Assembly (NCBI GenBank): GCA_048941285.1
Contig: JBHLNS010000007.1
Span: 41,686-105,685 of the forward strand
Reading direction: 5' to 3'
Source of the DNA: Promethearchaeota archaeon
GTDB taxonomy: Archaea > Asgardarchaeota > Lokiarchaeia > Sigyniarchaeales > SOKP01
DNA: 64,000 nucleotides
Both the position numbers and the translations under genes were made by a program. The notes below the pieces were generated by a model. The model was not told the origin of the DNA and searched no databases. It saw only the letters and a list, made by a program, of their open reading frames with translations. Below, one piece after another: positions 2,732 through 28,056 of the stretch. How positions within the stretch are numbered: the stretch's first letter is position 1; every line of letters begins with the position of its first letter.

Positions 2732-2801
2732 AAGACAAAAACATAAATATTCAATTTTTGATATTTATTGTAACTAAATTTTAATATTTGGAGTAGGGTT
2801 A

Positions 2802-3584
2802 ATGGGAAAAGAAGTTGATGAAGGTAAAAAAATATTTAAAGAAGCATTTGACGTACTAAATGATTATTTCGAAGAAAAACGATCTGACACCGTAATGGAA
2901 GAAGAAAAGAAAGCTAAAAAGGGAAAGGTAGCTTTAGCTAAATTTTCAAAAGGTCTGATTGGAAAAACAGATAAAATTAATTTCAGGATTTTAATTGGAC
3001 ATAAAAAAGAAATTGGAGACTGTATTTATGAAGCTGTCTATTTAAGTGATAAAAAGGAACCGAAAATTTACATTTTTAAAGTTAATTCGGGAAAGCCTTG
3101 CAGTACAGTCCTAATTAATTTCAAGGAAGAAGATTGGAATGGCTATAAAAAAGTTGAGAAATTCAAATCACTAACAAAATTCTTAGAATCTGCATATAAT
3201 GATGGGATTTATTACAAAGGAAAGAAGGAAAAAAAAGAAGACGCGTTAAATAGACTTATTAAAGGTCTAAAAAGATCCCTAGAAGCAGTTGAAGATGAAG
3301 AAAAAGCAAAAAAAGGAGATAATAGTCCAATTGCTTTGAAAATAGCCAAGTTTGTAGCGGTAGCGGCAGTAACTACGATAGTTTCAGCAGCATTAACTCC
3401 AGCAGCGGGTGTTATAGCCCAAGAAATTGCAGGGGGTGGATCTATCACAGGTGATGTTTTAGGCGCAGCTGCTCAGGCTGCAGGAGAAGGATTAAAAAAT
3501 TTAGTGGATCCCGCAAACATAGCAAAAAAAATTGTAACCAAAGTTATTACGAAAGGTAAAGATTTACCCGGAACAAATAAATAA
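2802..3584 (+). CDS. hypothetical protein with Ala/Gly-rich hydrophobic C-terminal segment
   Basis: 260-aa ORF, GGAG SD upstream; charged N-domain and hydrophobic C-terminal region. Confidence 0.6.
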   Translation: MGKEVDEGKKIFKEAFDVLNDYFEEKRSDTVMEEEKKAKKGKVALAKFSKGLIGKTDKINFRILIGHKKEIGDCIYEAVYLSDKKEPKIYIFKVNSGKPCSTVLINFKEEDWNGYKKVEKFKSLTKFLESAYNDGIYYKGKKEKKEDALNRLIKGLKRSLEAVEDEEKAKKGDNSPIALKIAKFVAVAAVTTIVSAALTPAAGVIAQEIAGGGSITGDVLGAAAQAAGEGLKNLVDPANIAKKIVTKVITKGKDLPGTNK

Positions 3585-3663
3585 AAAATAACAATAATAA
3601 ATTTCTTAAGTTATAAGATGTTTATTATCTAAATTTATTTAGATATTTATCGAGAAAAATAAA

Positions 3664-4134
3664 TTGTCAGAAGTAGCAAAATATCAAAATGTCTTTAGAA
3701 GTATATTAGTTTCAGGCGTGATCACTTTTACAGCTTATCTAATAACTTCGATAATATCATTTATAGTAGGTTTTCCTTTTCTCCCTGGCTATTTTCTTGT
3801 TGCGGATATACAATTTTTAATTGGAACCGTTTTTGGTGTAATTTATTTTATAAAAAAGCGGAGACCAGATCAATCAATTTTATTATATTGTGTAATAGTA
3901 GGGATAGTTGGAGGAATATTAGCTGCTTTATTTATTAGTATATATCAATGGGTTTTATTTCTCAACATTTATATGTTTGTTATATATTTCATACCTTGTC
4001 TTATTTCTGGAGTATTTATTGGGTTCTTAATTGGGGTTATTATAAGTGTATACAATATGTATAAAGAGGTAAAAGAAGAGAGACCAGAAAAGCATTATGA
4101 TGATGATTTCTTTAAAGAGTTGATTGAAGAATAA
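3664..4134 (+). CDS. 4-TM membrane protein
   Basis: four hydrophobic helices with GxxxG motifs, acidic tail. Confidence 0.65.
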   Translation: MSEVAKYQNVFRSILVSGVITFTAYLITSIISFIVGFPFLPGYFLVADIQFLIGTVFGVIYFIKKRRPDQSILLYCVIVGIVGGILAALFISIYQWVLFLNIYMFVIYFIPCLISGVFIGFLIGVIISVYNMYKEVKEERPEKHYDDDFFKELIEE

Positions 4135-4307
4135 TTATTAAAATACAATAAATCTTTTAATCTAAATTTTTAAGTGATTTTTAAGATTTTTAGTATCCTT
4201 TATCCTTGAATGAAGATATTTTGCTTAATAATTGGACTCTAAAAGAAATTAATTCCATAAATTTCTAATTTTTATTAATTAATAATAATTGAATTTAGGA
4301 TAGGAAA

Positions 4308-4601
4308 GTGAGTAAAGCAACTATCTGGCAATATAAAGAGTTTGTTCAGTCAAGAAAAGAAAAAATAGTAAATATGCTAATCAGTGAGATTATATTTCTA
4401 AAATCACGTTTTAAAAGGGCTCAGAATAAAGATGAATTACAATCTCTCAAAAAAGCACTGGAAAAATTAGATTATCTCCTAAATACGCTTAAAAGTAAGA
4501 GTTCTATAATTTCTGAAGAAGATTTTGATAAAATAGTCATGTTGATTTATCAAATTTTTAAAGATATTGCAGATAATTTAGAACAAACAATTAAAGTTTA
4601 A
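4308..4601 (+). CDS. small helical hypothetical protein
   Basis: 97-aa ORF, amphipathic helical composition. Confidence 0.5.
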   Translation: MSKATIWQYKEFVQSRKEKIVNMLISEIIFLKSRFKRAQNKDELQSLKKALEKLDYLLNTLKSKSSIISEEDFDKIVMLIYQIFKDIADNLEQTIKV

Positions 4602-5403
4602 GAACATTAAATTCCTTGAATGCTCTCAATGCACATATTGTAGCATTTACTCTATGTTCTTCTCCTTCACCTTCTTCCTGATCCCAACTTCCATCTGTTT
4701 TTTGTTTCATTTCTAGCTCTGAAAGTGATTTTAAAACTAATTTATGGTCAGATGATAACCTTGCATCTTTTAAGCAACGAATTAACCAGGCTATATATGC
4801 TCCTTTCCAATCCGGGGAGAAATTTTCTTCAACAACCTTAACCGCTTTATTGAATGATTCAGCATCTGCCCCAGAATAAAAAGCTAACATGGGTAGTGCT
4901 AACCAAGTAGCTCTTAAATAACCCTTTAATCTTCCAGAAGAATCACTATTCGCGAGTAAGAAATCAGTCGGACAATATGTCCCTTCTGCTTCTGCATAAC
5001 CAAAACGAATTAATATATGGGCACAATATGCAGTTAGCCAAACTCGAGTTTCAATACGCCCAGGGATCATCCACTTTGGTGGAGTATATTTGGAAATTTC
5101 AGAAATTTCATCCCAACCCCCGTCTTTTTGTTGATGAGATAATATATATTTACATGCGGGAACCACGATCTCTCCTTTATATATTTTCAAATCATCAAAC
5201 CATTCTAGAATATAACAAGTATCTGTAATATTACTCATTTCTTTTACCCAATAAGAAAAACCTCCATCAGTGTTCTGAAATAATTTCAATTTTTGTAAAA
5301 CCTCCTCAGATGGTTCTTCATCCCTCAAAATAGCTGAAAGGCGAGCCTTTTCTATGGAATTCCCATGGATTTTTACGAACCTAATAGATTTATGAATATT
5401 CAT
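4591..5403 (-). CDS. prenyltransferase/squalene oxidase (QW) repeat protein
   Basis: repeated QxxDGG[WF] motifs (QNTDGGF, QQKDGGW, QKTDGSW); ATG 5403 is the likely start. Confidence 0.75.
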   Translation of the reverse strand: MNIHKSIRFVKIHGNSIEKARLSAILRDEEPSEEVLQKLKLFQNTDGGFSYWVKEMSNITDTCYILEWFDDLKIYKGEIVVPACKYILSHQQKDGGWDEISEISKYTPPKWMIPGRIETRVWLTAYCAHILIRFGYAEAEGTYCPTDFLLANSDSSGRLKGYLRATWLALPMLAFYSGADAESFNKAVKVVEENFSPDWKGAYIAWLIRCLKDARLSSDHKLVLKSLSELEMKQKTDGSWDQEEGEGEEHRVNATICALRAFKEFNVLKL

Positions 5404-5606
5404 GAATTTCTTTTGAGATTTGAATTGTGCTTTCTCCAATTTTATGTATGAATTTATTGGTAAAGATTTTAATCTTTTGTACCAATGTGTTGTGAAATAA
5501 TCCTTAGATCATGTAATTCTCAAATAAATAATTGTGAAATATGTCAATTTTTTACTAGAAATCAAGAATTAGATATTAATTAAAAAGATAAAAAAAATGT
5601 TTAAAA

Positions 5607-6551
5607 TTACATTTTAATTAAAAGTCCAACAGCATCCATTAGGGTTTCTTTTCTTGGCAAACCTTTCATTAATTCACTTTTAACTCTTTCAGCAAGAATT
5701 TGAGGAGTCCATTTCTTACCGTCATTACTGATCATATTAACTGCATGCCATCCCTGATAAACCCAACACTTATCTCCAGACACTCTAAATACCTCGCCCG
5801 TTATTTTTCTTGCATTATCTGATGCTAAAAACACTGCCATAGGAGCAAAGTTCACAGGATTAAAAACATCAAAACCGGTTTCATCTGTTTTACTCATAAC
5901 ATCTGCCATTGATGGAGTTGCATCAGTAGTAAGCCGTGTTCGAGCAATCGGTACAAGACAGTTAACTGTAGCATACTTTTTTAACTCCATTGCGGATATA
6001 ATAGTAAAAGCAGCAATTCCTGCTTTTGCAGCACCATAATTAGATTGTCCCATATTCCCTAATAAACCAGCATCAGAAGCGGTGTTAATTATAGTCCCAA
6101 AATTTTTCAACTTCGGATCTGCCTTTCCTTGCTCTCTAAAATATGCTGCAGCATGACGAGTCATGTTAAAAGTACCTTTTAAATGTACTGCTATAACATC
6201 ATCAAATTCTTTTTCTGTCATGTTAAAAAGCATTCGATCCCGGAGAATTCCGGCATTGTTTAATAAAATATCTAATTTCCCAAACTCAGAGATCGCTTGA
6301 TCAATCATAGCTTTAGCTTTGTTAAAATCTGTAACAGAATCATAATTCCCAACAGCTTTAACGCCTAATTTTTTACACTCTTCAGCTACTTCGTCAGCAA
6401 TCTTAGTAGGAGCCCCACTCCCATCAAATCCGGCACCTAAATCGTTAATTACTAGATTACACCCTTCTCTCGCCATTGCTAAAGCTTCTTCACGTCCAAG
6501 ACCTCGACCAGCCCCAGTAATTATTGCTACCTTACCATCTAACATTCCCAT
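5607..6551 (-). CDS. SDR family oxidoreductase (3-hydroxyacyl-CoA dehydrogenase/MFE-2-like)
   Basis: TGAGRGLG, NDLG, NNAGILRD, YGAAK motifs. Confidence 0.9.
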   Translation of the reverse strand: MGMLDGKVAIITGAGRGLGREEALAMAREGCNLVINDLGAGFDGSGAPTKIADEVAEECKKLGVKAVGNYDSVTDFNKAKAMIDQAISEFGKLDILLNNAGILRDRMLFNMTEKEFDDVIAVHLKGTFNMTRHAAAYFREQGKADPKLKNFGTIINTASDAGLLGNMGQSNYGAAKAGIAAFTIISAMELKKYATVNCLVPIARTRLTTDATPSMADVMSKTDETGFDVFNPVNFAPMAVFLASDNARKITGEVFRVSGDKCWVYQGWHAVNMISNDGKKWTPQILAERVKSELMKGLPRKETLMDAVGLLIKM

Positions 6552-15465: not shown

Positions 15466-16185
15466 ATTTCAATTGATTGGGCTAAGGCTGAAGAAAGACC
15501 AGAAAAGAAACTATCAGTTGAGGGAAAAGTTTTGTTGGATCTCAGATCTAAGATTAATAGTATAGAAAAACAGTTAACTCAAAATAGAAAGGATTTAGAC
15601 AAAGCCTCATCAGAACTGAAGGTAACAAAAGAAGATTTATCAGAATCTAAGAAAAAGATTGAAGATTTCAATGAGAAGATTAAGAATTTTGAGAGAATAA
15701 AAGAAGAGAAACTATATGGGGATGCAGAGATAAATAAGCTACGAAATATAAAATCAGAATTAGAATCAAAATTATCTGAATCGAATTCTAAAATTATTGA
15801 CTTGGAAAACAAGTTAAAAGAATCCTCTGCAAAACTCGATAATGCAGAAAAAGATAAAAATGATGCATTATCCAATTCAAGAAAGGAGATAGAAACTCTT
15901 AAAAACAATCTTCAGCAAAAAAATAATGAACTCGAGGATCTAAAGGATGAATTACAAAAATCCCGTTCAGATAAATATGTAGAAATTGAAAGTCTTAAAG
16001 ATGAAGTTGAAACCAAAGATAAAGAAATTAATGCACTCAACCAAAAAGTCATATCGTTAGAAGAAACAATTTCAGATGCAGAAGGAGCACCAGAACTCAT
16101 TGAAAACATAAAAAATATTATGATGTCTAAAGGATTCCTGAGTGATAGAGAGTTTGATGCTCTTTTGGAGCATAAAGATATTTAG
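15466..16185 (+). CDS. coiled-coil protein (paralog 2), probable ATT start
   Basis: frame is open upstream of TTG 15532 and encodes SIDWAKAEERPEKKLSVEGKV, homologous to the paralog 1 head; in-frame stop at 15439; AGGTGA at 15453-15458. Confidence 0.7.
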   Translation: MSIDWAKAEERPEKKLSVEGKVLLDLRSKINSIEKQLTQNRKDLDKASSELKVTKEDLSESKKKIEDFNEKIKNFERIKEEKLYGDAEINKLRNIKSELESKLSESNSKIIDLENKLKESSAKLDNAEKDKNDALSNSRKEIETLKNNLQQKNNELEDLKDELQKSRSDKYVEIESLKDEVETKDKEINALNQKVISLEETISDAEGAPELIENIKNIMMSKGFLSDREFDALLEHKDI

Positions 16186-16211
16186 TAAATTAAATTCTTT
16201 TTATTATTCAA

Positions 16212-17297
16212 ATGGTTAAATTAATTTGGGAAAACAAATCAGACTATAAATCTGAAGATAATAAAAATTACAATCTCAATTATTTTGAAGCTTTTGAAAG
16301 TAATTCATCTAAGATAAATGTTGGGTTAGGAGGCATCAAGGATTCTGATTTGTGGATCAACAAGCTATTTTGGGGAGATAGCCTTGATGTGTTATATTAT
16401 TTGTTAAATAATTTAAAAAGAAAAATAGATTTAATTTACATTGATCCCCCATTCTTTTCTGGAGTTAATTATAAAATTAAAGTTAAGGAAAAAGGCAAAA
16501 TTTATGATTTAATTGCATATTATGATCATTGGAACAGAGATTTAGACTCATACTTACAAATGCTCTATGAAAGGATAAAAATATTTAAAAAATTGCTCTC
16601 TAATTCTGGATTACTTTTTATCCATTCTGATTGGCACGCTAATCATTATGTAAGAGTAATTTTAGATGAAATTTTCGGAGATAATAGGTTTGTGAATAAT
16701 ATCATTTGGTATTATTATAACAAATATTCCGCGGGGAAAAAAAAACTTCCAAGAGCTCATGATACAATTTTAGTTTATTCCAATTCTAGTAATTATACAT
16801 TTAATGAATTAAGAATACCTCGGAAAAACCCAAGAAAGCAGCTAATGAGAGTAAATGTAGATGGTGTATTAAAGAATGTGAAAGATAAGAATGGACATGT
16901 TAAATATCGAATAGTAAAGGACAAAAAATTAGACGATGTCTGGCAAATTCCTTGTTTACAACCAGCTTCAAAAGAGTGGACGGGTTTTCCTACTCAAAAA
17001 CACCATAAATTACTAGAAAGAATTATTAAATTAGGTTCTAATGAAGGAGACTTAATTGCTGATTTTTTTTGTGGTTCTGGAACGTCCTTAGTGTTAGCTG
17101 AAAAATTAAAGAGAAGATGGATTGGATGTGACATTTCAGAGTATTCGATATATTTAACTAGAAATAGGATTTTGGACACCCAAAATACTACACATAAATT
17201 TTATCCATTTGAAATACTTACAAATTTGAACGCACATAAAAAAGATATAATCGAATCAGGATTTTTTCAAAAAGAGATTTCAATAAAAAGAACATAA
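16212..17297 (+). CDS. site-specific DNA amino-methyltransferase, beta class (Mod-like)
   Basis: IYIDPPF precedes FPTQK and DFFCGSGT. Confidence 0.9.
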   Translation: MVKLIWENKSDYKSEDNKNYNLNYFEAFESNSSKINVGLGGIKDSDLWINKLFWGDSLDVLYYLLNNLKRKIDLIYIDPPFFSGVNYKIKVKEKGKIYDLIAYYDHWNRDLDSYLQMLYERIKIFKKLLSNSGLLFIHSDWHANHYVRVILDEIFGDNRFVNNIIWYYYNKYSAGKKKLPRAHDTILVYSNSSNYTFNELRIPRKNPRKQLMRVNVDGVLKNVKDKNGHVKYRIVKDKKLDDVWQIPCLQPASKEWTGFPTQKHHKLLERIIKLGSNEGDLIADFFCGSGTSLVLAEKLKRRWIGCDISEYSIYLTRNRILDTQNTTHKFYPFEILTNLNAHKKDIIESGFFQKEISIKRT

Positions 17298-20445: not shown

Positions 20446-21702
20446 ATGAATTTCAAATTTCATATTATCAAGAGGATAAAAGAGCTATATAAACATAAAA
20501 TTTTCAGATATGCTCTAGTCCTTCAAAGTTTTTATTTTATACTATCAATTATTCTTTATTTTTCTCTCTATCAAGAAAAAAATGACTTCGTAATTTTTTA
20601 TAATGTAGGGAACGTATTCCTCAATGATATTGAGAATCTTTATAATCAAACTTATTATTTATGGGATTTTAGATATTTTCCATTGTCAGCATTGTTTTTT
20701 ATTCCTTTTTCTCTCTTAAGTACTGATTCTGCATTTATAATTTTTAATATTTTCAATGTATTTTTGAATATTTTAATTTGTAACTATTTATATAAAATAA
20801 TCTTGCTGGTTAGAAAGGAAGATCATGAAAAAGATGATAAGAGAGTTATTTTATATATATGTATTTACTTAATGGGATTACCGCATGTGCTCAATTATAT
20901 TTATGGACAAATAAATTTATATATTACATTTTTTATTGTCTTATCTCTTTATATTTTTCTTAAGTATAAAGATATTAAGTGGCAATTTATAGCAAGTCTA
21001 ATTTTAGGCATAAGTATAATCATTAAACCTACAGCATTTTTATTAATACCTTTTCTTATAATAATAAATTTCAATTTAACAAATAAAAAGTTCAGAATTG
21101 AGTTTTTAAGAAGTTTGACTCGTATCATTGGAGTTTTAGTTCCTGTTTTATTAAATTTTATTCCTTTCTTTTTATATCCAACTCTATGGGAAGGGTTTTT
21201 GGAGACTAATTTTACGGGTAGTAATCCAGTCGCCTTAAATTTTTCTTTCAGTTTTACTAAGCTAATAACTAACTTCTGTTATTTTTATAATATCCCTTTT
21301 AACCAACTTATTCTTTTTTTAGGCGTTGTTGCTATAATTGGAGGATTAGGATTTATAACATTCTTAATCAGGAGATTTGAGAAAAATTCAATAATATATG
21401 GTTATGCTTTTGGCATCCTAATCATGTTACTTGCATATTTTGACTCATGGGATCATCATTTACTCAATTTAACTCCAATTTTAATTATTATTATGTTTAA
21501 TTTACCACGTCGTTCTAAAATTACAGCCCCTTTTAAATTGAGTTTATTTTTCTTTAGTTTTTTAGATCTTGCTTTTGTAGGAATATGGTACTTAATTTAT
21601 CCATTATTCCCATATAATTTAGAGCCAACATTCTTTTTAATAATAACATTCTATGGGATTGGTAAATATTGTTTGATAAAGAAAAATAGAGAGGAGATCT
21701 AA
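20446..21702 (+). CDS. GT-C fold glycosyltransferase, family 87/DUF2029-like (copy 1)
   Basis: TM1 followed by NDF..FY, FRYFPLS.LFF.PF, GQIN, IKP, SWDHH. Confidence 0.75.
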   Translation: MNFKFHIIKRIKELYKHKIFRYALVLQSFYFILSIILYFSLYQEKNDFVIFYNVGNVFLNDIENLYNQTYYLWDFRYFPLSALFFIPFSLLSTDSAFIIFNIFNVFLNILICNYLYKIILLVRKEDHEKDDKRVILYICIYLMGLPHVLNYIYGQINLYITFFIVLSLYIFLKYKDIKWQFIASLILGISIIIKPTAFLLIPFLIIINFNLTNKKFRIEFLRSLTRIIGVLVPVLLNFIPFFLYPTLWEGFLETNFTGSNPVALNFSFSFTKLITNFCYFYNIPFNQLILFLGVVAIIGGLGFITFLIRRFEKNSIIYGYAFGILIMLLAYFDSWDHHLLNLTPILIIIMFNLPRRSKITAPFKLSLFFFSFLDLAFVGIWYLIYPLFPYNLEPTFFLIITFYGIGKYCLIKKNREEI

Positions 21703-21706
21703 AAAA

Positions 21707-22447
21707 TTGAAGCGAAAAGGATATATCTTCAATATATTTTTATTTTTCTTATTAATGAGCAATATAATATCTATTGTGAATGCTCTCGATTATGGTGTAG
21801 GAGTTAGTGAGAGTCAGGAATTAATCTGGACTTGTAAAAAATGCAATCAAATAGAGATGAATAATATTTTTGGAAATGAATGGAAAGATTCTGGAGTCTT
21901 CAAAAATTTAAGTGCTGGAAAACGAATGAAATGGAAAATTAATAGTATTGAAGTCAATCAATCATTCTCTAAGATAAATATTAGCATTTGGGATTGGACT
22001 AGTGAAAAAATATGGGGAATAAAAGATAATGATTCTGAAATAACTTATTTTTTTGATACATTAGAATCGAATTTTACTACATATACGTCTCTAGTTCCAT
22101 TTTGGTTTCCAGTTCCCGTAGGAGAATTTATTGGAAGTTTAGAATTAAATAATTGGTATGATGTGGATAATAGAGTTTTACCTACTCTAAACGTGGAAAT
22201 TGAAAAAGATGAGATATCTCTCGGATTTCCTCTAAAAAGGATAAAGATTATTGCAATTTATAATAACCAAGGGATTTTAAATTCCTATAAACTCTATACT
22301 ACGGGTAATGTTGTTATTATAGACATTAGTCTTGAATTTTTACCTATTTATGTAATACCAACTTTAGTAGGATTATTAACTGCATTATCTGTTAGTATTA
22401 TAATATATTTGTCAAAAAAGAGAAAATTAATTTTAAAACAATTATAA
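21707..22447 (+). CDS. secreted protein with C-terminal TM anchor
   Basis: N-terminal signal peptide; C-terminal TM followed by KKRK; several NxS/T sequons. Confidence 0.7.
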   Translation: MKRKGYIFNIFLFFLLMSNIISIVNALDYGVGVSESQELIWTCKKCNQIEMNNIFGNEWKDSGVFKNLSAGKRMKWKINSIEVNQSFSKINISIWDWTSEKIWGIKDNDSEITYFFDTLESNFTTYTSLVPFWFPVPVGEFIGSLELNNWYDVDNRVLPTLNVEIEKDEISLGFPLKRIKIIAIYNNQGILNSYKLYTTGNVVIIDISLEFLPIYVIPTLVGLLTALSVSIIIYLSKKRKLILKQL

Positions 22448-22466
22448 AAATGTGGGTATTTTAGAA

Positions 22467-23726
22467 ATGGATTTTAAAGATTTATATATTAAAATTATCA
22501 AGAGATTTAAGGAGCTTTGGGGCTATAAAATATTCCGATTTGCTGTTATTATTCAAATTTTTTATTTAATCTTTTCAATGGTTTTAACACTTATCTTTTT
22601 AAGAGAACAAAATGACTTTTTAGTATATTATAAGGTTGGTGAGGTTTTTATTACAGATATCACTAACCTTTATACAGCAGATTATTTGTGGCCATTCAGA
22701 TATTTTCCAATTTCAGCTATTTTCTTTGTTCCTTTTTATTTATTGGGTTTCGATTTTGGTTATGTCGTGTTTACTTTACTCAATTTATTATTGAATGTTA
22801 TAATATGTGTCCTTTTATATAAAATAATAATTCTTATAAAAGGTTTAGACCATGAGAAAGATGATAAGAGAATGGTCACGTATGTTTGTTTATTTCTAAT
22901 GGGATTACCTAACCTTTTTAATTACATTTTGGGCCAAATTAATTTATATGTAACTCTACTAATTTTATTATCCCTCTTTTTGTTTTTAACTCGAGAAACT
23001 ATTAAATGGGATTTAATATCTAGTTTCATTTTGGGATGTAGTATAATTATAAAGCCTATTACTATTTTCATGATACCATTCTTATTAGTATTAAATTTTA
23101 GATTTAAGAAAAGAAGATTTGAATTTAAAGCTCTTAAAAGTGTCATCAGAATGATTGGAGTTATTTTACCTTTAAGTTTAAACCTTTTCTTATTTCTACT
23201 TTATCCAACACTATGGGAAGGTTTCATTACCACTAATTTTACGGGGAGCGAACCAATTATCGTAAACCATTCATTTAGTTTAACTAAGATAATCTTAAAC
23301 TTCCTTATTTTCTATAATATCTCTCATAATCCATTATTAATCTTTCTATTTATTTTGCTCATTATAGGGGGATTAGGTTTTATTGTTTATGTTTTTCGAA
23401 GGATTACTAAAAATTCCATAATTCTGGCTTATCTTTTTGGTATTTTAATAATGTTACTTGTATATTATGACTCATGGCCACATCATCTGTTAGTATTAAT
23501 ACCTCTTTTAATAATTCTGATATTCTATGTCCCTCGAAATTCTAAAATAACAAGTAAATATTTAAAGCCGAGTTTTTTCTTTTTAAATTTTTTTGATTTA
23601 GCATTTATGGGCATTTGGTTTATTACACAGTATTTTTTTCCATATAATTTTGTTAGTACTATCTTTTTGTTAATAGTTCTTTACGGATCTGCTAAATTTT
23701 GTTTAACTGAAGATTCAAATTATTAA
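22467..23726 (+). CDS. GT87/DUF2029-like glycosyltransferase (copy 2)
   Basis: full-length paralog of 20446..21702 (DHEKDDKR, GQINLY, LYPTLWEGF..TNFTGS); ATG 22467 aligns with the paralog start. Confidence 0.75.
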   Translation: MDFKDLYIKIIKRFKELWGYKIFRFAVIIQIFYLIFSMVLTLIFLREQNDFLVYYKVGEVFITDITNLYTADYLWPFRYFPISAIFFVPFYLLGFDFGYVVFTLLNLLLNVIICVLLYKIIILIKGLDHEKDDKRMVTYVCLFLMGLPNLFNYILGQINLYVTLLILLSLFLFLTRETIKWDLISSFILGCSIIIKPITIFMIPFLLVLNFRFKKRRFEFKALKSVIRMIGVILPLSLNLFLFLLYPTLWEGFITTNFTGSEPIIVNHSFSLTKIILNFLIFYNISHNPLLIFLFILLIIGGLGFIVYVFRRITKNSIILAYLFGILIMLLVYYDSWPHHLLVLIPLLIILIFYVPRNSKITSKYLKPSFFFLNFFDLAFMGIWFITQYFFPYNFVSTIFLLIVLYGSAKFCLTEDSNY

Positions 23727-23858: not shown

Positions 23859-24593
23859 ATGCTCCAATTTTATCCCCCACCTTTATTTCTGATTTTTGCG
23901 CCAGCGTTTCTTTTAGGCATATTACATACATTAATTCCATGTGAAGATAAAGCAATCTTTTTCTTTTGGTCTTTTGGTATATCTAAAACGCTTAAAAAAA
24001 GTCTTTTTATATTAATTTTTTATGGATTAGGCTTAATGTCCTCTAATTTGATAATAGCAACTGGCACAATTTTGATTAGTTTTATTCCACAGATTTTAAT
24101 TCCAGGAATTAGTGATATAAAACCTACTACAATAAACTTTTTCGGGTCATTAACTTCTATGTTTGCAGGAGTTATTTTGCTGTTCTTTATCACAAGACGA
24201 GGTTATTTTCCTCATTCAAAGCAAAAAGATGAGATATTTCAATTTAATTGGGAAAAGAGAAAGACTCCGTATCTATTTGGAATCCTTGCAGGATTTGCTC
24301 CTTGTATCTTTGAGTTTTTTATATATTCTCAATGCTTAACCTTTTCTTTAAGCTATGAATTAGGATTCATTGATGGGATTTTCACAGTGTTCTATTTTTC
24401 TTTAGGCACGTTTATTGGATTATTTCCCATTGCTTTAGCGAAACATGGAACATCTCAAATAATAAAATCAAAAGAGACAAGAAAAAATTGGATCCTTATT
24501 CTTATGATTATCATAATAATTGTATTTAACACGGTTGTTATGATTTTATCATTTTTAGGAATTCCTGTTTTCCCAGAAGTACCAATTCCTTAA
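23859..24593 (+). CDS. NiCoT/UreH/DsbD-like membrane protein
   Basis: LGILHTLIPC and G.LAGFAPC, F.LGT motifs; 6 TM. Confidence 0.6.
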   Translation: MLQFYPPPLFLIFAPAFLLGILHTLIPCEDKAIFFFWSFGISKTLKKSLFILIFYGLGLMSSNLIIATGTILISFIPQILIPGISDIKPTTINFFGSLTSMFAGVILLFFITRRGYFPHSKQKDEIFQFNWEKRKTPYLFGILAGFAPCIFEFFIYSQCLTFSLSYELGFIDGIFTVFYFSLGTFIGLFPIALAKHGTSQIIKSKETRKNWILILMIIIIIVFNTVVMILSFLGIPVFPEVPIP

Positions 24594-24748: not shown

Positions 24749-27118
24749 ATGAAATGTTTATTCTGTGAAAATCAAAAAATCGATTTCACATGCGAAAAAT
24801 GTAAATCTAGCTTTTGCATTAATCATATTGCTACAACTGAAATACATGAATGTAGAAAACATAATTTAATCTATTCTAAAGTAAAAGCAATTGAAAGAAA
24901 TTTTAAATGCACGGTTGTAGAAAGCAGTGAATGCCCAGTTTGTAAAAATCTCTTAAGATTAGAAAGATTATCTTCAGGGCAGTATTATTTAGAATGTATT
25001 AATCCGAATTGTCCTGAAGCATGGAATTCATATTTGAAAACACCAGGGTTATTTTTCCCTTCAAAGGAAAAACTTGCAAGAGAAGCTTTAAGATATAATC
25101 TCATAAAAGTTAATAGATTAATCTTATGTAGTAAGAAATTACGCCATATAATTGGAAAAGAAGTTTGTCCTAAATGTTTTCTAGACTTGTTACAAATAGC
25201 TCCGATTACTAATTTTTCAACAATAATGAATTCTTTTAATATATCTGCAGAACAAATGATTAAATTTATAAACAAATACATTGAGGAAGAACGAATATAT
25301 GGAATTATTGATCAAAAAAATCAGATGTTTTATTACATATCTCCCGAAATGCGGGAAAATATATTAGCTAAATTTCAAAATGAAGGGATAATTAAAGTAA
25401 GCGATTTAGGAACTATGCTTGATATGAGTTCGGAGATCGCTTTAAAAGTAATTTACAAGTTAATAAATCAGTTTCAAATTAAAGGTTCTTTCTCATTAGA
25501 TAAAGATATATATTATACTCAAAAGTATATATTAGACAGTTTGATAAAAGAGATTAATAAAAAAGGGAGGGTAAATCTTAAAGAACTTGCTGATATTTTT
25601 GATATCCCAAAAGAACTTGTTAAATCATTTTGTGTGAATTTAATGAGAACTAAAGCTGTTAATGGTTTTTTCGCTGATCGTGGAAATGAAATCATTACAG
25701 CTGATCAAATTTACACAGATATAAGAAATTATTCCAAAGAAACAGGATTGTTTGAACTTTCAAAGCTTGCTATAAAATTAAAAATTGCAGTAGAATTAGC
25801 AAGAAAAAGCCTTCATGAGTTAATAAAAACCGGTGATATTAAAGGCCTCTTTACTCAAAGAAGAGAATTTATGACTAATAAACACATGGAGAAAAAGATA
25901 AGAGAAATCGCTAGAGCATATAGAACAATGCCTTTACGAGAACTTTCAAATAGATTAGGAGTCACTGAATCAAGTATTGAAGAAAATTTAGCTCAAATTA
26001 TAGCTCGTGGAGATATAGATGGATATATCGATATGTCTAAGAAAGTTTTTGTTGCGTACAGTGTCCCTATGGAAACAACATCAAAAGCTAAATCAACAGC
26101 CAAAGAACCTCTCGATGAAGGTAAAATTGAAGTTGTTCGTGATTATGATTTCGTAGGTGGTCAATTACATTTCAAGGTAGCTATCCGCAATCAAAGTAAT
26201 ATGGCAATAAATACAGTGAAAGTCCTTTTAGATGTACCTTCAAGTTATAATGCAAAAAGTCCTCTCATTACTGTGCCTGTTATAGAAGCAAAAAACTCTA
26301 GAGGTGTTGATTTCTATTTGGAGCCAAAAGAATGCGGAATTTCGAATATTACTGGTGATGTTATCTACAAAACCGCTACTGGAGAAAAAAAAACGGTTCA
26401 CATACGTAAAAAAGAAGTTCAAATAAAATGTCCCTTAGTAGTTTCATGTTTAGCAACAATCGAAGATATTCAAATAGCCATCGCAGATCTTCCCAATGAT
26501 GCTCGAGCATTTTTAATTGCAGATCTGGATCCTCGTTTAGCTTTTAGAGCAGCAGTAAGAACCATTAAGCGTTTTGAAGTAAGCACAGTGACTTCTCATG
26601 AAGGAACTGATTCTAAAGGTAAATATGAAGCGGAGAGTTGGCATTGTTCAGAAGCGAAGATAGGTGGAGGAAGAATTGTTACACGAATATATGTATCTGA
26701 AGCGAATCAGTCATTAGAAGTTAGAGTTTGGTGTAATCATCCTGGTCAATTAACAGGGTTTTTAGCTAAAGTGATTGAGCTATTATTTGAGGAGATCAAT
26801 TTAATAAGAAAGATTAAAAGTGAAGAACGTGAAAAAACAATCGATGTTATGGCAATAACTCAAAATATTGCAGAGATGTCGGATTATTGCATGCTAAGAT
26901 GGAAAGCGCAAAACATTAGAACTAAATTACATGATACTTTTGTTAGAGTAAGAAAAATTATGGGAGATAAAGAAGCTATTCTAGGGAGAATGGAATTTTG
27001 GTTAACAAACTTGAATAAATATGGAAAAGATGATAAGATTTCCGATGAGGACGCAGATAAACTTGTGGTAGAACTTGAAAACTTTAGGAATGTTATCGCT
27101 CGTTCTATCAAATTGTAG
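24749..27118 (+). CDS. multidomain protein: Zn fingers + PCI/winged-helix repeats (DDRGK1/UFL1-like) + adaptin-ear-like sandwich/platform
   Basis: CxxC clusters aa 1-145; five ~59-aa wH repeats ending in G.I.G.[IF]; beta-rich sandwich then alpha/beta platform. Confidence 0.7.
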   Translation: MKCLFCENQKIDFTCEKCKSSFCINHIATTEIHECRKHNLIYSKVKAIERNFKCTVVESSECPVCKNLLRLERLSSGQYYLECINPNCPEAWNSYLKTPGLFFPSKEKLAREALRYNLIKVNRLILCSKKLRHIIGKEVCPKCFLDLLQIAPITNFSTIMNSFNISAEQMIKFINKYIEEERIYGIIDQKNQMFYYISPEMRENILAKFQNEGIIKVSDLGTMLDMSSEIALKVIYKLINQFQIKGSFSLDKDIYYTQKYILDSLIKEINKKGRVNLKELADIFDIPKELVKSFCVNLMRTKAVNGFFADRGNEIITADQIYTDIRNYSKETGLFELSKLAIKLKIAVELARKSLHELIKTGDIKGLFTQRREFMTNKHMEKKIREIARAYRTMPLRELSNRLGVTESSIEENLAQIIARGDIDGYIDMSKKVFVAYSVPMETTSKAKSTAKEPLDEGKIEVVRDYDFVGGQLHFKVAIRNQSNMAINTVKVLLDVPSSYNAKSPLITVPVIEAKNSRGVDFYLEPKECGISNITGDVIYKTATGEKKTVHIRKKEVQIKCPLVVSCLATIEDIQIAIADLPNDARAFLIADLDPRLAFRAAVRTIKRFEVSTVTSHEGTDSKGKYEAESWHCSEAKIGGGRIVTRIYVSEANQSLEVRVWCNHPGQLTGFLAKVIELLFEEINLIRKIKSEEREKTIDVMAITQNIAEMSDYCMLRWKAQNIRTKLHDTFVRVRKIMGDKEAILGRMEFWLTNLNKYGKDDKISDEDADKLVVELENFRNVIARSIKL

Positions 27119-27183: not shown

Positions 27184-27612
27184 TTGGTGTTAATTATTCC
27201 TATTATCAGTGTTTCTTTGAATGAGAATCTGAAAAAATTCATTAATAAGCTTGTTTCAAAAAACCAGTACGAGAATAAATCTAAATTAATTAGAGATGCT
27301 CTATTACGTTTAATGTCTACAGAAGATATATCTTCTTCCCTTGATTCTTTTAGTGATTTTACTCCAGTTGCAAAAAAGGTGATTGGTAACATGATTATTG
27401 TTGCTCCTAATGATTCAAATGTTCAAAAAAAATTAAATAGAATAGAAAGTGAATATAACAAACAGATTGTTAGTAAAAATCAGAATTTTGTAAATCAAAA
27501 TTTCATAATATTTATGATTTATGAAGGAAATCTTCAAGAATTTCAAAAACTTGTTGTAGAGATAAATAGTATCGAAGAAATAAAAAATTTTAGATACCTA
27601 ATTATTAACTAA
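27184..27612 (+). CDS. NikR/CopG-like ribbon-helix-helix regulator
   Basis: PIISVSL.E.L...I..LV....Y.NKS.LIRDAL; ACT-like C-terminal domain; true start uncertain (27184, 27187 or ATT 27196). Confidence 0.75.
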   Translation: MVLIIPIISVSLNENLKKFINKLVSKNQYENKSKLIRDALLRLMSTEDISSSLDSFSDFTPVAKKVIGNMIIVAPNDSNVQKKLNRIESEYNKQIVSKNQNFVNQNFIIFMIYEGNLQEFQKLVVEINSIEEIKNFRYLIIN

Positions 27613-27696
27613 AATTATCTTTCTATTTCCAAAAAATTTAGAATAATTATTAAATATAACTGCAATCATATAAAGGTCAAATAAAGTAATATAAAA

Positions 27697-28056
27697 ATGG
27701 GAAAAAACAAATACGGGAAAGCATTTCAAAAAGAAACGCATTTGAAGCACGGTGGAGTCAAGCAAGGAGGAGATCCTATTCGCGGAGGAAAAATTAAGGC
27801 AAGTCACATCTTAGTTGAGAAGTTTAGTAAAGCTAAAGAGATTCATGAAGATTTAATGGCTGGAGATAAGTTTGAACAATTAGCAAGTCAATATTCTAGC
27901 TGTTCAAGTAAGAAGAGAGGAGGAAATTTAGGTGAATTTAGTAAAGGAGATATGGTCCCCGAATTTTGGGACGCATGTACAAAATTAAAAATTGGTGAAA
28001 TTTCTCAACCCGTAAAATCTCAGTATGGATACCATATTATCAAACGCACAGGATAA
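27697..28056 (+). CDS. parvulin-type peptidyl-prolyl cis-trans isomerase
   Basis: ASHILV, F..LA..YS, GGNLG.F.KG.MVPEF, SQPVKSQYGYHII. Confidence 0.92.
   Translation: MGKNKYGKAFQKETHLKHGGVKQGGDPIRGGKIKASHILVEKFSKAKEIHEDLMAGDKFEQLASQYSSCSSKKRGGNLGEFSKGDMVPEFWDACTKLKIGEISQPVKSQYGYHIIKRTG

What the first reader, a model, noticed from the sequence alone, without database searches (positions are those of the whole stretch)
25190..26060. Winged-helix array reading like a natural DDRGK1(UFBP1)-UFL1 fusion
Seen: five ~59-aa wH repeats. The first junction, YIEEERIYGIIDQKNQMFYYISPEMRENILAKFQNEGIIKVSDL, parallels the DDRGK1 C-terminus as I recall it (G.I.GVIDDRGKFIYITPEE...IRQRGRVSIAEL). The next, FSLDKDIYYTQKYILDSLIKEINKKGRVNLKEL, parallels the UFL1 N-terminus (TLDGKEYIT...ELHVRGGRVNIVDL). 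Established: in the UFM1 E3 ligase, partial wH domains of these two subunits complement each other to form one wH backbone that clamps the 60S subunit. Inference: a single-chain ancestral form of that scaffold, preceded by AN1/B-box-like Zn fingers.
Basis: partly seen in the sequence, partly recalled or inferred. Interest (0 to 1): 0.8.

Follow-up and report, generated by a model that had tools for sequence, protein, structure and literature searches.

The report
Single-chain archaeal UFL1–UFBP1-like scaffold protein
An Asgard archaeal gene encodes, in one chain, the winged-helix rod that eukaryotes build from two proteins (UFBP1 and UFL1), joined here to membrane-trafficking modules; this protein family has already been described in print, so the find is real but only modestly new.

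Summary
Window 25169-26068 encodes five ~60-aa winged-helix (wH) repeats inside a 789-aa ORF (24749-27118, +).

As a whole, the array resembles UFL1/DDRGK1 far more than generic PCI or ESCRT-II wH:
- The best structural match is the engineered human DDRGK1-UFL1 chimera 8B9X (Foldseek E 1.6e-13; VIA Z 16.1, 242 residues at 3.4 Å).
- The family profile scores 2.6e-18 against 8B9X, against 3.6e-4 for the best PCI protein.

The match is collinear. DDRGK1 196-304 aligns to aa 122-226 and UFL1 29-247 aligns to aa 228-438. The domain that eukaryotes assemble from two partial wH is therefore one continuous wH here.

Caveats:
- Single repeats are generic PCI-like.
- The native register wins by only 4-8 bits.

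Several ligase features are absent:
- UFL1's UFC1-binding helix, its C-terminal domain and UFBP1's membrane anchor are not present.
- Pfam finds no Ufm1, UFC1 or CDK5RAP3 in the genome.
- Ubiquitin, E2s, Vps22 and Vps28 are present.

The likely role is a non-catalytic adaptor linked to ESCRT. This architecture, and the Asgard origin of UFL1 and DDRGK1, are already published. I did not find the single-chain, gene-fission reading in print.

The parts
24749..27118 (+). Whole ORF, 789 aa plus stop. It is a soluble multidomain protein. The best 19-aa Kyte-Doolittle window scores 1.62 at aa 561, inside a confidently folded domain, and there is none at the N-terminus.
   Evidence: 287 relatives at E<=1e-3, of which the best 120 are 73-94% identical and mostly about 789 aa, some partial
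24749..24868 (+). Cys/His module 1 (aa 1-40). The ligands C3, C6, C15, C18, C23, H26, C35 and H38 are conserved in the family consensus. It is a cross-brace-like two-zinc finger of unassigned type.
   Evidence: zf-AN1 only 14.4 bits, E 0.042; weak BRE1/TRIM56 hits at E 0.07-0.2
24905..25018 (+). Cys4 zinc-ribbon-like module (aa 53-90; C53, C61, C64, C82, C87).
   Evidence: Zn_ribbon_Top1 13.1 bits, E 0.087, below cut-off
25031..25168 (+). Linker helix plus a C127/H133/C140/C143 knuckle (aa 95-140). The model confidence here is low.
   Evidence: (C33, C46, C49 of the fragment nearly invariant)
25169..25342 (+). wH repeat 1 (aa 141-198), the counterpart of UFBP1/DDRGK1 WH1'.
   Evidence: 8oj0_C DDRGK1 196-304 = aa 122-226; profile 139-219 = DDRGK1 218-297
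25343..25519 (+). wH repeat 2 (aa 199-257), the counterpart of the eukaryotic composite pWH'-pWH domain. The point where eukaryotes are split falls in the 4-residue H2-H3 loop (aa 224-227). This loop has no insertion in 22 of 22 full-length orthologs aligned.
25520..25699 (+). wH repeat 3 (aa 258-317), the counterpart of UFL1 WH1.
25700..25876 (+). wH repeat 4 (aa 318-376), the counterpart of UFL1 WH2.
   Evidence: 8b9x_A covers aa 133-379
25877..26068 (+). wH repeat 5 (aa 377-440). It is the most PCI-like repeat (PCI 38.1 bits) and structurally aligns to UFL1 up to residue 247.
   Evidence: (8ohd_A 29-247 = aa 228-438)
26126..26737 (+). Adaptin/COPI-type appendage ('ear'): beta-sandwich (aa 460-560) plus platform (aa 561-663). 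It is the most conserved part across distant orthologs (49-67% identity).
   Evidence: COPI 9qpq_H E 3.7e-9; AP2 beta2 1e42_A 5.9e-9; AP-4 beta 2mj7 Z 13.8; AP2 ears Z about 13
26738..27115 (+). Long helix (from aa 665) running into a Vps28 C-terminal four-helix bundle (aa 693-788).
   Evidence: VPS28 23.8 bits, profile 88-182; 24.9 bits; ortholog 36.7 bits; Vps28-CTD chains E 0.0025; 20 of 30 alignment members; 2j9w_B Z 14.5, rmsd 1.9, 96 of 99 residues

Best explanation
The ORF encodes a conserved multidomain scaffold of an Asgard archaeon of the Lokiarchaeia/Promethearchaeota type.

Domain order:
1. Two to three Cys/His zinc modules.
2. A rigid rod of five tandem PCI-like winged helices.
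3. An adaptin/COPI-type appendage (sandwich plus platform).
4. A Vps28 C-terminal bundle.

What is shown:
- The rod is homologous to, and best aligned collinearly with, UFBP1 WH1', then the composite pWH'-pWH, then UFL1 WH1 to WH3 of the eukaryotic UFM1 E3.
- In the archaeon the rod is a single polypeptide, so the domain that eukaryotes assemble from two half-domains is an ordinary continuous wH.
- The parts that make the eukaryotic complex a UFM1 ligase on ER-bound 60S subunits are not there. These are the UFL1 alpha1 helix that binds UFC1, the UFL1 C-terminal domain, and the UFBP1 membrane anchor and long helix.

What is inferred:
- The protein is a non-catalytic, UFM1-independent adaptor.
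- Its Vps28-C domain docks it to ESCRT-II/III.
- Its ear recruits partners that carry short motifs.
- The wH rod and zinc modules bind the target. The target may be ubiquitylated cargo, an E2~ubiquitin conjugate, or a large particle such as the ribosome.
- Eukaryotic UFL1 and UFBP1 would then descend from such a chain through a break inside one wH domain.
For: Whole-array preference for UFL1/DDRGK1:
- Pfam DDRGK matches aa 142-220 (48.5 bits) and E3_UFM1_ligase matches aa 228-436 (63.2 bits). They abut in that order and both pass their cut-offs.
- The same ranges recur in orthologs of 45-47% identity.
- In a scan of 301 genomes, the 55 best matches all start at E3_UFM1_ligase profile positions 11-30.
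- The single sequence hits only 8b9x_A significantly (E 2.2e-5, one stretch across the fusion point).
- The family profile scores: 8b9x 2.6e-18; DDRGK1 alone about 1e-7; UFL1 alone 3e-7; best PCI (CSN4) 3.6e-4. No ESCRT-II chain appears at E<=1.
- Foldseek ranks 1-5 are 8b9x and UFL1 bound to 60S (E 1.6e-13 to 4e-11). The next hits are SelB 4e-6, ESCRT-II 1.7e-3 and CSN about 3e-3.
- VIA gives 8b9x_A Z 16.1, 242 of 256 residues at 3.4 Å. DDRGK1 196-304 maps to aa 122-226 and UFL1 29-247 maps to aa 228-438.

Continuity of repeat 2:
- The H2-H3 loop of repeat 2 has no insertion in 22 of 22 orthologs.

C-terminal half:
- The appendage is supported.
- Vps28-C is supported.

Pathway context in the window's own genome (94% complete):
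- Ufm1, UFC1 and CDK5RAP3 are not found by Pfam.
- Ufm1 is over its cut-off in 0 of 301 genomes of the phylum.
- Four UQ_con matches over cut-off, five ubiquitin matches, one EAP30/Vps22 and a full Vps28 are present.

Conservation:
- The family is found in 61 of 68 sampled genomes of the window's own family, mostly as a single copy.

Published context (passages read):
- Peter 2022 and Makhlouf 2024 on the seven-wH backbone and UFL1 alpha1.
- Liu 2020 on this same architecture.
- Picchianti 2023 on the Asgard origin of UFL1 and DDRGK1 and a UFM1-independent role.
- Hatano 2022 on Lokiarchaeal Vps28-Vps22 two-hybrid contacts.
Against: - Single repeats are not specific. Repeat 1 scores PCI 31.0 against DDRGK 21.7. 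Repeat 5 scores PCI 38.1 against UFL1 13.9. DDRGK matches repeats 1, 3 and 4 almost equally (21.7, 18.6, 20.3 bits).
- The register signal is small. DDRGK on 'wH plus half wH' fragments scores 29.1 bits in the native register and 25.1, 22.5 and 21.5 when shifted. E3_UFM1_ligase scores 39.2 native against 32.3 and 34.1 shifted.
- With repeat 1 removed, the native stretch scores 10.6 bits and a shifted one 6.9 bits.
- Repeat 2, the supposed composite equivalent, is among the least conserved parts (22-29% identity to distant orthologs).
- Similar wH arrays sit in many other Asgard architectures and draw DDRGK and UFL1 hits in other positions.
- No neighbouring gene is conserved beyond the family level, so context gives no functional link.
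- The absence of Ufm1, UFC1 and CDK5RAP3 rests on Pfam models. For UFC1 and CDK5RAP3 no control genome rang, and Ufm1 rang weakly in one, below its cut-off.
- Köstlbacher 2026 (passage) reports structure-detected Ufm1 homologues in nine Asgard clades.
- No binding, localisation or expression data exist for this protein.
Confidence: 0.6

Rival explanations
1. It is a working UBL E3 of the UFL1 type. In this reading the wH rod activates an archaeal E2 charged with ubiquitin or a divergent Ufm1-like protein, and the rest of the protein targets that activity to membranes or ESCRT.
For: - In humans, three tandem wH (WH1', composite, WH1) suffice for scaffold-type E3 activity (Peter 2022, passage). 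All three have counterparts here.
- The genome encodes E2s and ubiquitin-like proteins.
- Hatano 2022 uses IPR018611 as the Asgard 'E3' marker (passage).
- Köstlbacher 2026 reports Ufm1-like proteins in Asgard.
Against: - UFL1 alpha1, whose deletion abolishes UFC1 binding (Makhlouf 2024, passage), has no counterpart. The equivalent place is a 4-residue loop in 22 of 22 orthologs.
- UFC1 and Ufm1 are not found by Pfam in this genome.
- Ufm1 is over its cut-off in 0 of 301 genomes of the phylum.
Confidence: 0.12
2. It is a generic array of PCI-like winged helices. In this reading the DDRGK and UFL1 hits arise only because those Pfam models are themselves wH repeats, and there is no special one-to-one relation to the UFBP1/UFL1 junction.
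For: - Single repeats score as well or better with PCI.
- Shifted registers lose only 4-8 bits.
- Other Asgard wH arrays hit both models in shuffled positions.
- VIA finds single PCI wH at Z 11-13, rmsd about 1 Å, for repeat 5.
Against: - Over the whole array, UFL1/DDRGK1 beat every other multi-wH protein by 7 or more orders of magnitude in Foldseek and by 14 in the profile search.
- 242 residues spanning four domains superpose at 3.4 Å on the chimera.
- The native register is the best in every test and is reproduced across the family.
Confidence: 0.15
3. It is a UFM1-independent factor that binds the large ribosomal subunit. In this reading the wH rod lies along the subunit, as in the eukaryotic E3, and hands membrane-bound or stalled ribosomes to ESCRT.
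For: - In the human complex all wH except WH1' touch ribosomal proteins RPL13, RPL36 and RPL36A (Makhlouf 2024, passage). Counterparts of the composite wH and WH1-3 are present.
- Picchianti 2023 suggests a UFM1-independent ancestral role.
Against: - The main eukaryotic ribosome anchors are absent: the UFL1 C-terminal domain and PTC loop, the UFBP1 helix and CDK5RAP3.
- No ribosomal or translocon gene is a conserved neighbour.
- No contact residues were tested here.
Confidence: 0.1
4. It is a DNA-binding regulator built from winged helix-turn-helix domains and zinc ribbons.
For: There are weak hits to HTH families such as FeoC, HTH_DeoR, Sigma70_r4 and Lrp-type regulators.
Against: - All these hits are at or below their cut-offs and far weaker than the UFL1/DDRGK/PCI hits.
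- Fusion to an adaptin ear and Vps28-C does not fit a transcription factor.
Confidence: 0.03

Closest known systems
Human UFL1/UFBP1 (DDRGK1) core of the UFM1 E3 ligase, and its engineered single-chain chimera PDB 8B9X
   Same: - Both are tandem PCI-like wH domains whose first helices form a backbone.
- They run in the same order: WH1', composite, WH1, WH2, WH3.
- 242 residues superpose at 3.4 Å, Z 16.1.
- Both Pfam models pass their cut-offs.
   Different: - The archaeal protein is naturally one chain. It has 5 wH, against 7 in the eukaryotic complex.
- It has no UFL1 alpha1, no UFL1 WH4-5 or C-terminal domain, and no UFBP1 transmembrane or long-helix region.
- The 'DDRGK' wing loop reads DQKNQ.
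- The C-terminus is replaced by an adaptin ear and Vps28-C.
- Ufm1, UFC1 and CDK5RAP3 are not detected.
Asgard multidomain protein 'Vps28 + adaptin/COPI C-terminal domain + E3 UFM1-protein ligase 1' (Liu et al. 2020 preprint, Fig. 5a text; Makarova et al. 2024, Vps28-C/adaptin/HTH-PCI proteins)
   Same: The domain combination is the same (against passages). Near-identical proteins are deposited as 'PCI domain-containing protein' from Asgard MAGs.
   Different: - The passages I read do not mention the DDRGK1 part or the continuous composite wH.
- Makarova et al. speak of a longin domain next to the appendage. Here the alpha/beta domain matches the appendage platform (AP-4 beta, Z 13.8).
PCI-domain subunits of the proteasome lid, COP9 signalosome and eIF3
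   Same: Each repeat, above all repeat 5, has the PCI-type wH fold (PCI 38.1 bits; CSN and Rpn chains Z 11-13, rmsd about 1 Å over about 63 residues).
   Different: There is no helical-repeat part in front of the wH. There are five wH in tandem instead of one. Whole-array scores are far lower than for UFL1/DDRGK1.
ESCRT-I subunit Vps28
   Same: The C-terminal four-helix bundle matches (2j9w_B Z 14.5, rmsd 1.9 Å, 96 of 99 residues; Pfam profile 88-182).
   Different: It lacks the N-terminal core (steadiness-box) half. The genome has a separate full-length Vps28 matching profile 2-188.
Appendage ('ear') domains of AP-2 alpha/beta2, AP-4 beta and COPI beta/gamma
   Same: The two-subdomain sandwich-plus-platform fold matches.
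   Different: It is not attached to an adaptin trunk. The relative orientation of the subdomains differs (overall rmsd about 13 Å). No motif-binding residues were tested.

Membership tests
UFL1 (E3 UFM1-protein ligase 1, Pfam PF09743) | N-terminal tandem wH region matching the family model above its curated cut-off | tested here: met
   63.2 bits against a cut-off of 23.2, with aa 228-436 = profile 23-234. 30 of 30 alignment members match. UFL1 chains score E 3e-7 with the family profile.
UFL1 (E3 UFM1-protein ligase 1, Pfam PF09743) | N-terminal helix alpha1 (aa 1-25) that binds UFC1 | tested here: not met
   UFL1 residue 29 aligns to aa 228, directly after DDRGK1 304 = aa 226. The gap is a 4-residue loop with no insertion in 22 of 22 orthologs. 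The role of alpha1 is from Makhlouf 2024 (passage).
UFL1 (E3 UFM1-protein ligase 1, Pfam PF09743) | A partial wH that must be completed in trans by UFBP1 | tested here: not met
   Repeat 2 is a complete H-E-H-H-E-E wH in one chain.
UFL1 (E3 UFM1-protein ligase 1, Pfam PF09743) | WH4-5 and the helical C-terminal domain that occupies the tRNA sites and PTC | tested here: not met
   After repeat 5 come an appendage domain and Vps28-C. No UFL1 chain is among the 50 rows listed for the C-terminal model in either.
UFL1 (E3 UFM1-protein ligase 1, Pfam PF09743) | Cognate pathway (UFM1, UFC1, CDK5RAP3) encoded in the genome | tested here: inconclusive
   There are no Pfam matches in the 94%-complete genome. 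For UFC1 and CDK5RAP3 no control genome rang. Ufm1 is over its cut-off in 0 of 301 genomes of the phylum. UBA5 and UFSP2 were not searched.
DDRGK1/UFBP1 (Pfam PF09756) | C-terminal WH1' plus partial wH matching the family model above its cut-off | tested here: met
   48.5 bits against a cut-off of 27.8, with the best stretch aa 142-220 = profile 102-179. The native fragment alone scores 29.1 bits. DDRGK1 chains score E 1e-7 to 8e-7.
DDRGK1/UFBP1 (Pfam PF09756) | N-terminal membrane anchor and long charged helix (profile positions 1-100), and the DDRGK loop | tested here: not met
   - The profile is matched only from position about 98-102.
- The N-terminus consists of zinc modules.
- There is no hydrophobic segment at the N-terminus.
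- The wing loop reads DQKNQ where human reads DDRGK.
PCI-domain proteins (PF01399) | wH of the PCI type | tested here: met
   80.2 bits in 5 stretches. Repeat 5 alone scores 38.1 bits.
PCI-domain proteins (PF01399) | Helical-repeat segment preceding a single C-terminal wH, as in lid, CSN and eIF3 subunits | tested here: not met
   The model shows five bare wH with no helical-repeat segment. That this feature defines PCI subunits is my own knowledge.
ESCRT-I Vps28 (PF03997) | C-terminal four-helix bundle | tested here: met
   - 2j9w_B Z 14.5, rmsd 1.9 Å, 96 of 99 residues.
- Pfam scores 23.8 bits and 24.9 bits against a cut-off of 24.5.
- Orthologs score 29.4 and 36.7 bits.
ESCRT-I Vps28 (PF03997) | N-terminal core that joins the ESCRT-I headpiece | tested here: not met
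   Only profile positions 88-182 of 188 are matched. A separate gene matches 2-188.
Adaptin/COPI appendage | Beta-sandwich plus platform subdomains | tested here: met
   Foldseek E 3.7e-9 to 1e-6 for COPI and AP-2 ears. VIA Z 12.8-13.8.
zf-AN1 (PF01428) | Match to the family model above its cut-off | tested here: not met
   14.4 bits, E 0.042, against a cut-off of 27.9. It is not among the families matched at E<=0.01. The ligand spacing resembles AN1 or B-box only loosely (the consensus patterns are recalled).

The most novel reading that the evidence does not exclude
The eukaryotic UFM1 E3 ligase arose when a single-chain Asgard adaptor of this kind was broken inside its second winged helix. 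The upstream piece gained a membrane anchor and became UFBP1. The downstream piece gained the UFC1-binding helix and a ribosome-plugging C-terminal domain and became UFL1. Before UFM1 existed, the ancestral rod already worked on a large cytosolic particle, possibly the ribosome at the membrane, and delivered it to ESCRT through its Vps28-C and adaptin-ear modules.
Probability: 0.2. Interest if true: 0.75.

Novelty: already known. Interest (0 to 1): 0.4.

Why it matters
UFMylation is an ER and ribosome quality-control pathway found in most eukaryotes. Its E3 is odd in two ways: it has no catalytic domain, and it is held together by a wH domain split between two proteins.

An archaeal protein in which that domain is whole gives a simple account of the split as a gene fission. 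It also provides a natural single-chain version for structural and biochemical work. Because its genome shows no UFM1 or UFC1, it lets one ask what the scaffold did before UFM1 existed.

Its fusion to an adaptin ear and Vps28-C ties the question to the origin of eukaryotic trafficking.

The value is tempered. The architecture (Liu et al.) and the Asgard origin of UFL1 and DDRGK1 (Picchianti et al.) are already in print. What is added here is the residue-level collinearity, the structural match to 8B9X, and the list of ligase parts that are missing.

Tried and rejected
- Complex prediction of the Vps28-C part (aa 675-789) with the genome's Vps22-like protein, both given as alignments. The verdict was 'no answer' (score 0.00), so it is not evidence either way.
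- hhalign of alignment A2 against the genome's own Vps28. Probability was 0.3. A2 mixes full-length rows of several architectures and the target was a single sequence, so I set this aside in favour.
- Expression. No RNA holder was listed among 20 runs, so nothing can be said on expression.
- Earlier findings of this scan.
- ESM Atlas look-up of the N-terminal 140 aa. There was no usable hit.
- Conserved gene neighbours.
  - Synteny holds only within the window's own family (6 of 6 loci from family f1).
  - The two orthologs from the sister family share no neighbour.
- A eukaryote-like split form in other Asgard lineages.
  - Six loci from other families were examined.
  - In the five UFL1-like frames scanned, the UFL1-like match lies well inside a 252-678-aa protein, not at an N-terminus.
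  - This is a small sample, not a survey.
- Ufm1 in the phylum. There were only 8 weak matches (16.9-20.4 bits) among 301 genomes, 6 of them inside frames of 277-918 aa. They were not followed up.
- Supplement of Picchianti 2023. One held file was searched and had no occurrence of the terms. Appendix Fig. S1B,C, which may show whether their UFL1 and DDRGK1 hits are the same archaeal proteins, could not be seen.
- Literature searches for a statement of the single-chain form. None was found in the held library.
- The name of the N-terminal zinc finger (AN1, B-box or RING) could not be settled.


Full report
**Where the finding lies**

The finding (25190-26060) lies inside one ORF on the + strand, 24749-27118, 789 aa. 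The window has about 29% G+C. It carries archaeal genes such as an FttA/aCPSF1-type nuclease and aEF2. It belongs to a 3.55-Mb assembly of 101 contigs, 94% complete. Near-identical proteins (73-94% identity) are deposited from Asgard MAGs, mostly labelled Promethearchaeota or Lokiarchaeota. They are named 'PCI domain-containing protein', with one 'E3 UFM1-protein ligase' and one 'DUF2042'.

**The observation**

- A self-offset scan of aa 141-445 peaks at 60 aa (z 4.5 against 200 shuffles), with harmonics at 120 and 181.
- Five units align on a conserved Gly at aa 185, 246, 306, 366 and 425.
- An AlphaFold2 model of aa 95-445 (30-row alignment, pLDDT 86.4, pTM 0.70) shows five successive H-E-H-H-E-E winged helices.
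- The domain bounds are aa 141-198, 199-257, 258-317, 318-376 and 377-440, which is nt 25169-26068.

**Is the array UFL1/DDRGK1-like or generic?**

Over the whole protein, three Pfam models pass their cut-offs:
- PCI: 80.2 bits in five stretches.
- E3_UFM1_ligase: 63.2 bits, aa 228-436 = profile 23-234.
- DDRGK: 48.5 bits, best stretch aa 142-220 = profile 102-179.

The DDRGK and UFL1 matches abut in the order DDRGK1 then UFL1.

Against PDB sequences:
- The single protein hits only one chain significantly. That chain is 8b9x_A, an engineered human DDRGK1-UFL1 chimera, matched in one stretch that runs across the fusion point (E 2.2e-5).
- A family profile raises this to 2.6e-18.
- The same profile scores DDRGK1 alone at about 1e-7 (its residues 218-297 against profile 139-219) and UFL1 alone at 3e-7 (residues 26-104 against profile 221-298).
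- The best PCI protein, CSN4, scores 3.6e-4. No ESCRT-II chain appears at E<=1.

By structure:
- Foldseek ranks 8b9x first (E 1.6e-13, TM 0.72 on the target, 3.6 Å over 245 columns). UFL1 from three 60S complexes follows (1e-12 to 4e-11).
- The next hits are SelB (4e-6), Pol III/TFIIIC wH proteins (about 1e-4), ESCRT-II (1.7e-3) and CSN (about 3e-3).
- VIA-align gives 8b9x_A Z 16.1, with 242 of 256 residues at 3.4 Å, covering aa 133-379.
- VIA maps DDRGK1 196-304 to aa 122-226 and UFL1 29-247 to aa 228-438.

For the array as a whole, this does not occur.

**Limits of that conclusion**

- Taken one at a time, the repeats are generic.
  - Repeat 1 scores PCI 31.0, DDRGK 21.7, UFL1 16.2.
  - Repeat 5 scores PCI 38.1, UFL1 13.9, DDRGK 13.3.
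  - DDRGK matches repeats 1, 3 and 4 almost equally.
- I tested the register with fragments.
  - DDRGK on 'one wH plus the next half' scores 29.1 bits in the native register. It scores 25.1, 22.5 and 21.5 bits when shifted.
  - E3_UFM1_ligase on fragments starting at helix 3 scores 39.2 bits native (profile 28-164). It scores 32.3 and 34.1 bits shifted, and the model then re-aligns to its later repeats.
- With repeat 1 removed, the chimera is still matched best in the native register, but only at 10.6 against 6.9 bits.

The native register wins every test. It also recurs in orthologs of 45-47% identity, and in the 55 best matches of a 301-genome scan, all of which start at profile positions 11-30. 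The margin is nevertheless small.

Similar wH arrays occur in other Asgard architectures, with DDRGK and UFL1 hits in other positions.

**The junction**

In eukaryotes, UFBP1 ends in a partial wH. UFL1 starts with helix alpha1 (aa 1-25) followed by a partial wH. The two halves form a composite domain within a seven-wH backbone (Peter 2022 and Makhlouf 2024, passages).

Here the counterpart is repeat 2. The eukaryotic break point falls in its four-residue loop between helices 2 and 3 (aa 224-227). That loop has no insertion in 22 of 22 full-length orthologs aligned. There is therefore no room for UFL1 alpha1, which binds UFC1 and is needed for activity.

The archaeal rod corresponds to WH1', the composite, and WH1-3.

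**The rest of the protein**

- The N-terminal 140 aa hold conserved Cys/His ligands. No zinc-finger family passes threshold: zf-AN1 scores 14.4 bits and Zn_ribbon_Top1 13.1 bits.
- A model of aa 440-789 (pLDDT 89.3) shows a beta-sandwich and an alpha/beta platform. Together they match adaptin and COPI appendages (Foldseek E 3.7e-9 to 1e-6; AP-4 beta Z 13.8, AP-2 ears Z about 13).
- It also shows a four-helix bundle that matches the Vps28 C-terminal domain (2j9w_B Z 14.5, 1.9 Å, 96 of 99 residues).
- Pfam VPS28 scores for that bundle are:
  - 23.8 to 24.9 bits in the window protein.
  - 29.4 and 36.7 bits in orthologs.
  - A match in 20 of 30 alignment members, about 8 of which are fragments or differ C-terminally.
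- The appendage and the helix after it are the most conserved parts across distant orthologs (49-77% identity). The wH repeats show 19-51% identity.
- No convincing transmembrane segment exists.

**Genome context**

Found in the genome:
- Four UQ_con matches over cut-off.
- Five ubiquitin-family matches.
- One EAP30/Vps22.
- One full-length Vps28.

Not found by Pfam:
- Ufm1, UFC1 and CDK5RAP3. For UFC1 and CDK5RAP3 no control genome rang, so absence is not shown.
- Ufm1 passes its cut-off in 0 of 301 genomes of the phylum. Köstlbacher et al. 2026 nevertheless report structure-detected Ufm1 homologues in nine Asgard clades (passage).

Distribution and neighbours:
- The gene is present in 61 of 68 sampled genomes of its own family, mostly once, and in 107 of 301 genomes of the phylum in some form.
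- Its neighbours are conserved only within the family.

**Mechanism**

Shown:
- The domain order.
- The homology and best-fit collinearity of the rod with UFBP1-UFL1.
- The absence of the ligase-specific and ribosome-anchoring parts.

Inferred:
- The protein is a non-catalytic adaptor.
- Vps28-C docks it to ESCRT-II/III. Lokiarchaeal Vps28-Vps22 contacts are reported by two-hybrid in Hatano 2022 (passage).
- The ear recruits motif-bearing partners.
- The rod and zinc modules hold the target.

My attempt to test Vps28-C with Vps22 by complex prediction gave no verdict.

**What is already known**

- Liu et al. [quoted passage not shown] They predict a role in ubiquitin-dependent membrane remodelling.
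- Makarova et al. 2024 list Vps28-C/adaptin proteins with HTH/PCI domains.
- Hatano et al. 2022 use IPR018611 as the Asgard 'E3' marker.
- Picchianti et al. [quoted passage not shown] Their Appendix figures could not be read.
- From recall, not seen here: earlier Asgard genome papers also listed UFL1-like proteins among eukaryotic signature proteins.
- I found no paper in the held library stating that the two are one chain in Asgard, or that the eukaryotic split lies inside a wH.

**Verdict**

It is not supported in its polarity, its zinc-finger naming or its implied ribosome function.

The protein belongs to a published Asgard family. What is added here is the residue-level collinearity, the structural match to the engineered chimera, and the list of ligase parts that are missing.

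Noticed in passing
L048:510-4935 (another Asgard family, G070): A 666-aa wH-array protein (E3_UFM1_ligase 30.9 bits) is followed on the same strand by a 796-aa protein with CARDB, TRAP_beta and Alpha_adaptinC2 matches. The wH rod and an adaptin-like module, fused in the window's protein, are neighbouring genes here.
   Followed up: partly
L046:1883-6783 and L047:5203-10120 (two genomes of family f9): In both loci a 666-678-aa UFL1-like protein sits directly downstream of, and overlaps, a P-type cation ATPase gene. This pairing recurs in two genomes of different genera.
   Followed up: no
G000 contig C41, about 2000-6300: An E2 (UQ_con, 85.7 bits) and three ubiquitin-family matches lie within about 4 kb. 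This is probably the genome's ubiquitin gene cluster.
   Followed up: no
window 20446-23726: Two paralogous GT87-family glycosyltransferase genes flank a 246-aa ORF. A DsbD_2-like membrane protein (23859-24593) follows, directly upstream of the gene under study. This order is kept within the family.
   Followed up: partly
window 27184-28056: Directly downstream lie a small NikR-like ribbon-helix-helix protein (142 aa) and a parvulin-type PPIase (119 aa). Both are syntenic within the family only.
   Followed up: partly
proteins P0127-P0270: The appendage module (aa about 455-700) is shared by well over a hundred 50%-identity clusters with very different lengths (104-2169 aa) and N-termini. It is a widely shuffled module in these archaea.
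   Followed up: no
L004-L007 and rows: The only Ufm1-model matches in 301 genomes of the phylum are weak (16.9-20.4 bits). Six of the 8 lie inside frames of 277-918 aa, four of them in family f29. This fits the remark in Köstlbacher 2026 that some Ufm1-like hits are parts of larger proteins.
   Followed up: no
window 15532-17297: A 217-aa coiled-coil protein is followed by an N6/N4 DNA methylase (361 aa).
   Followed up: no
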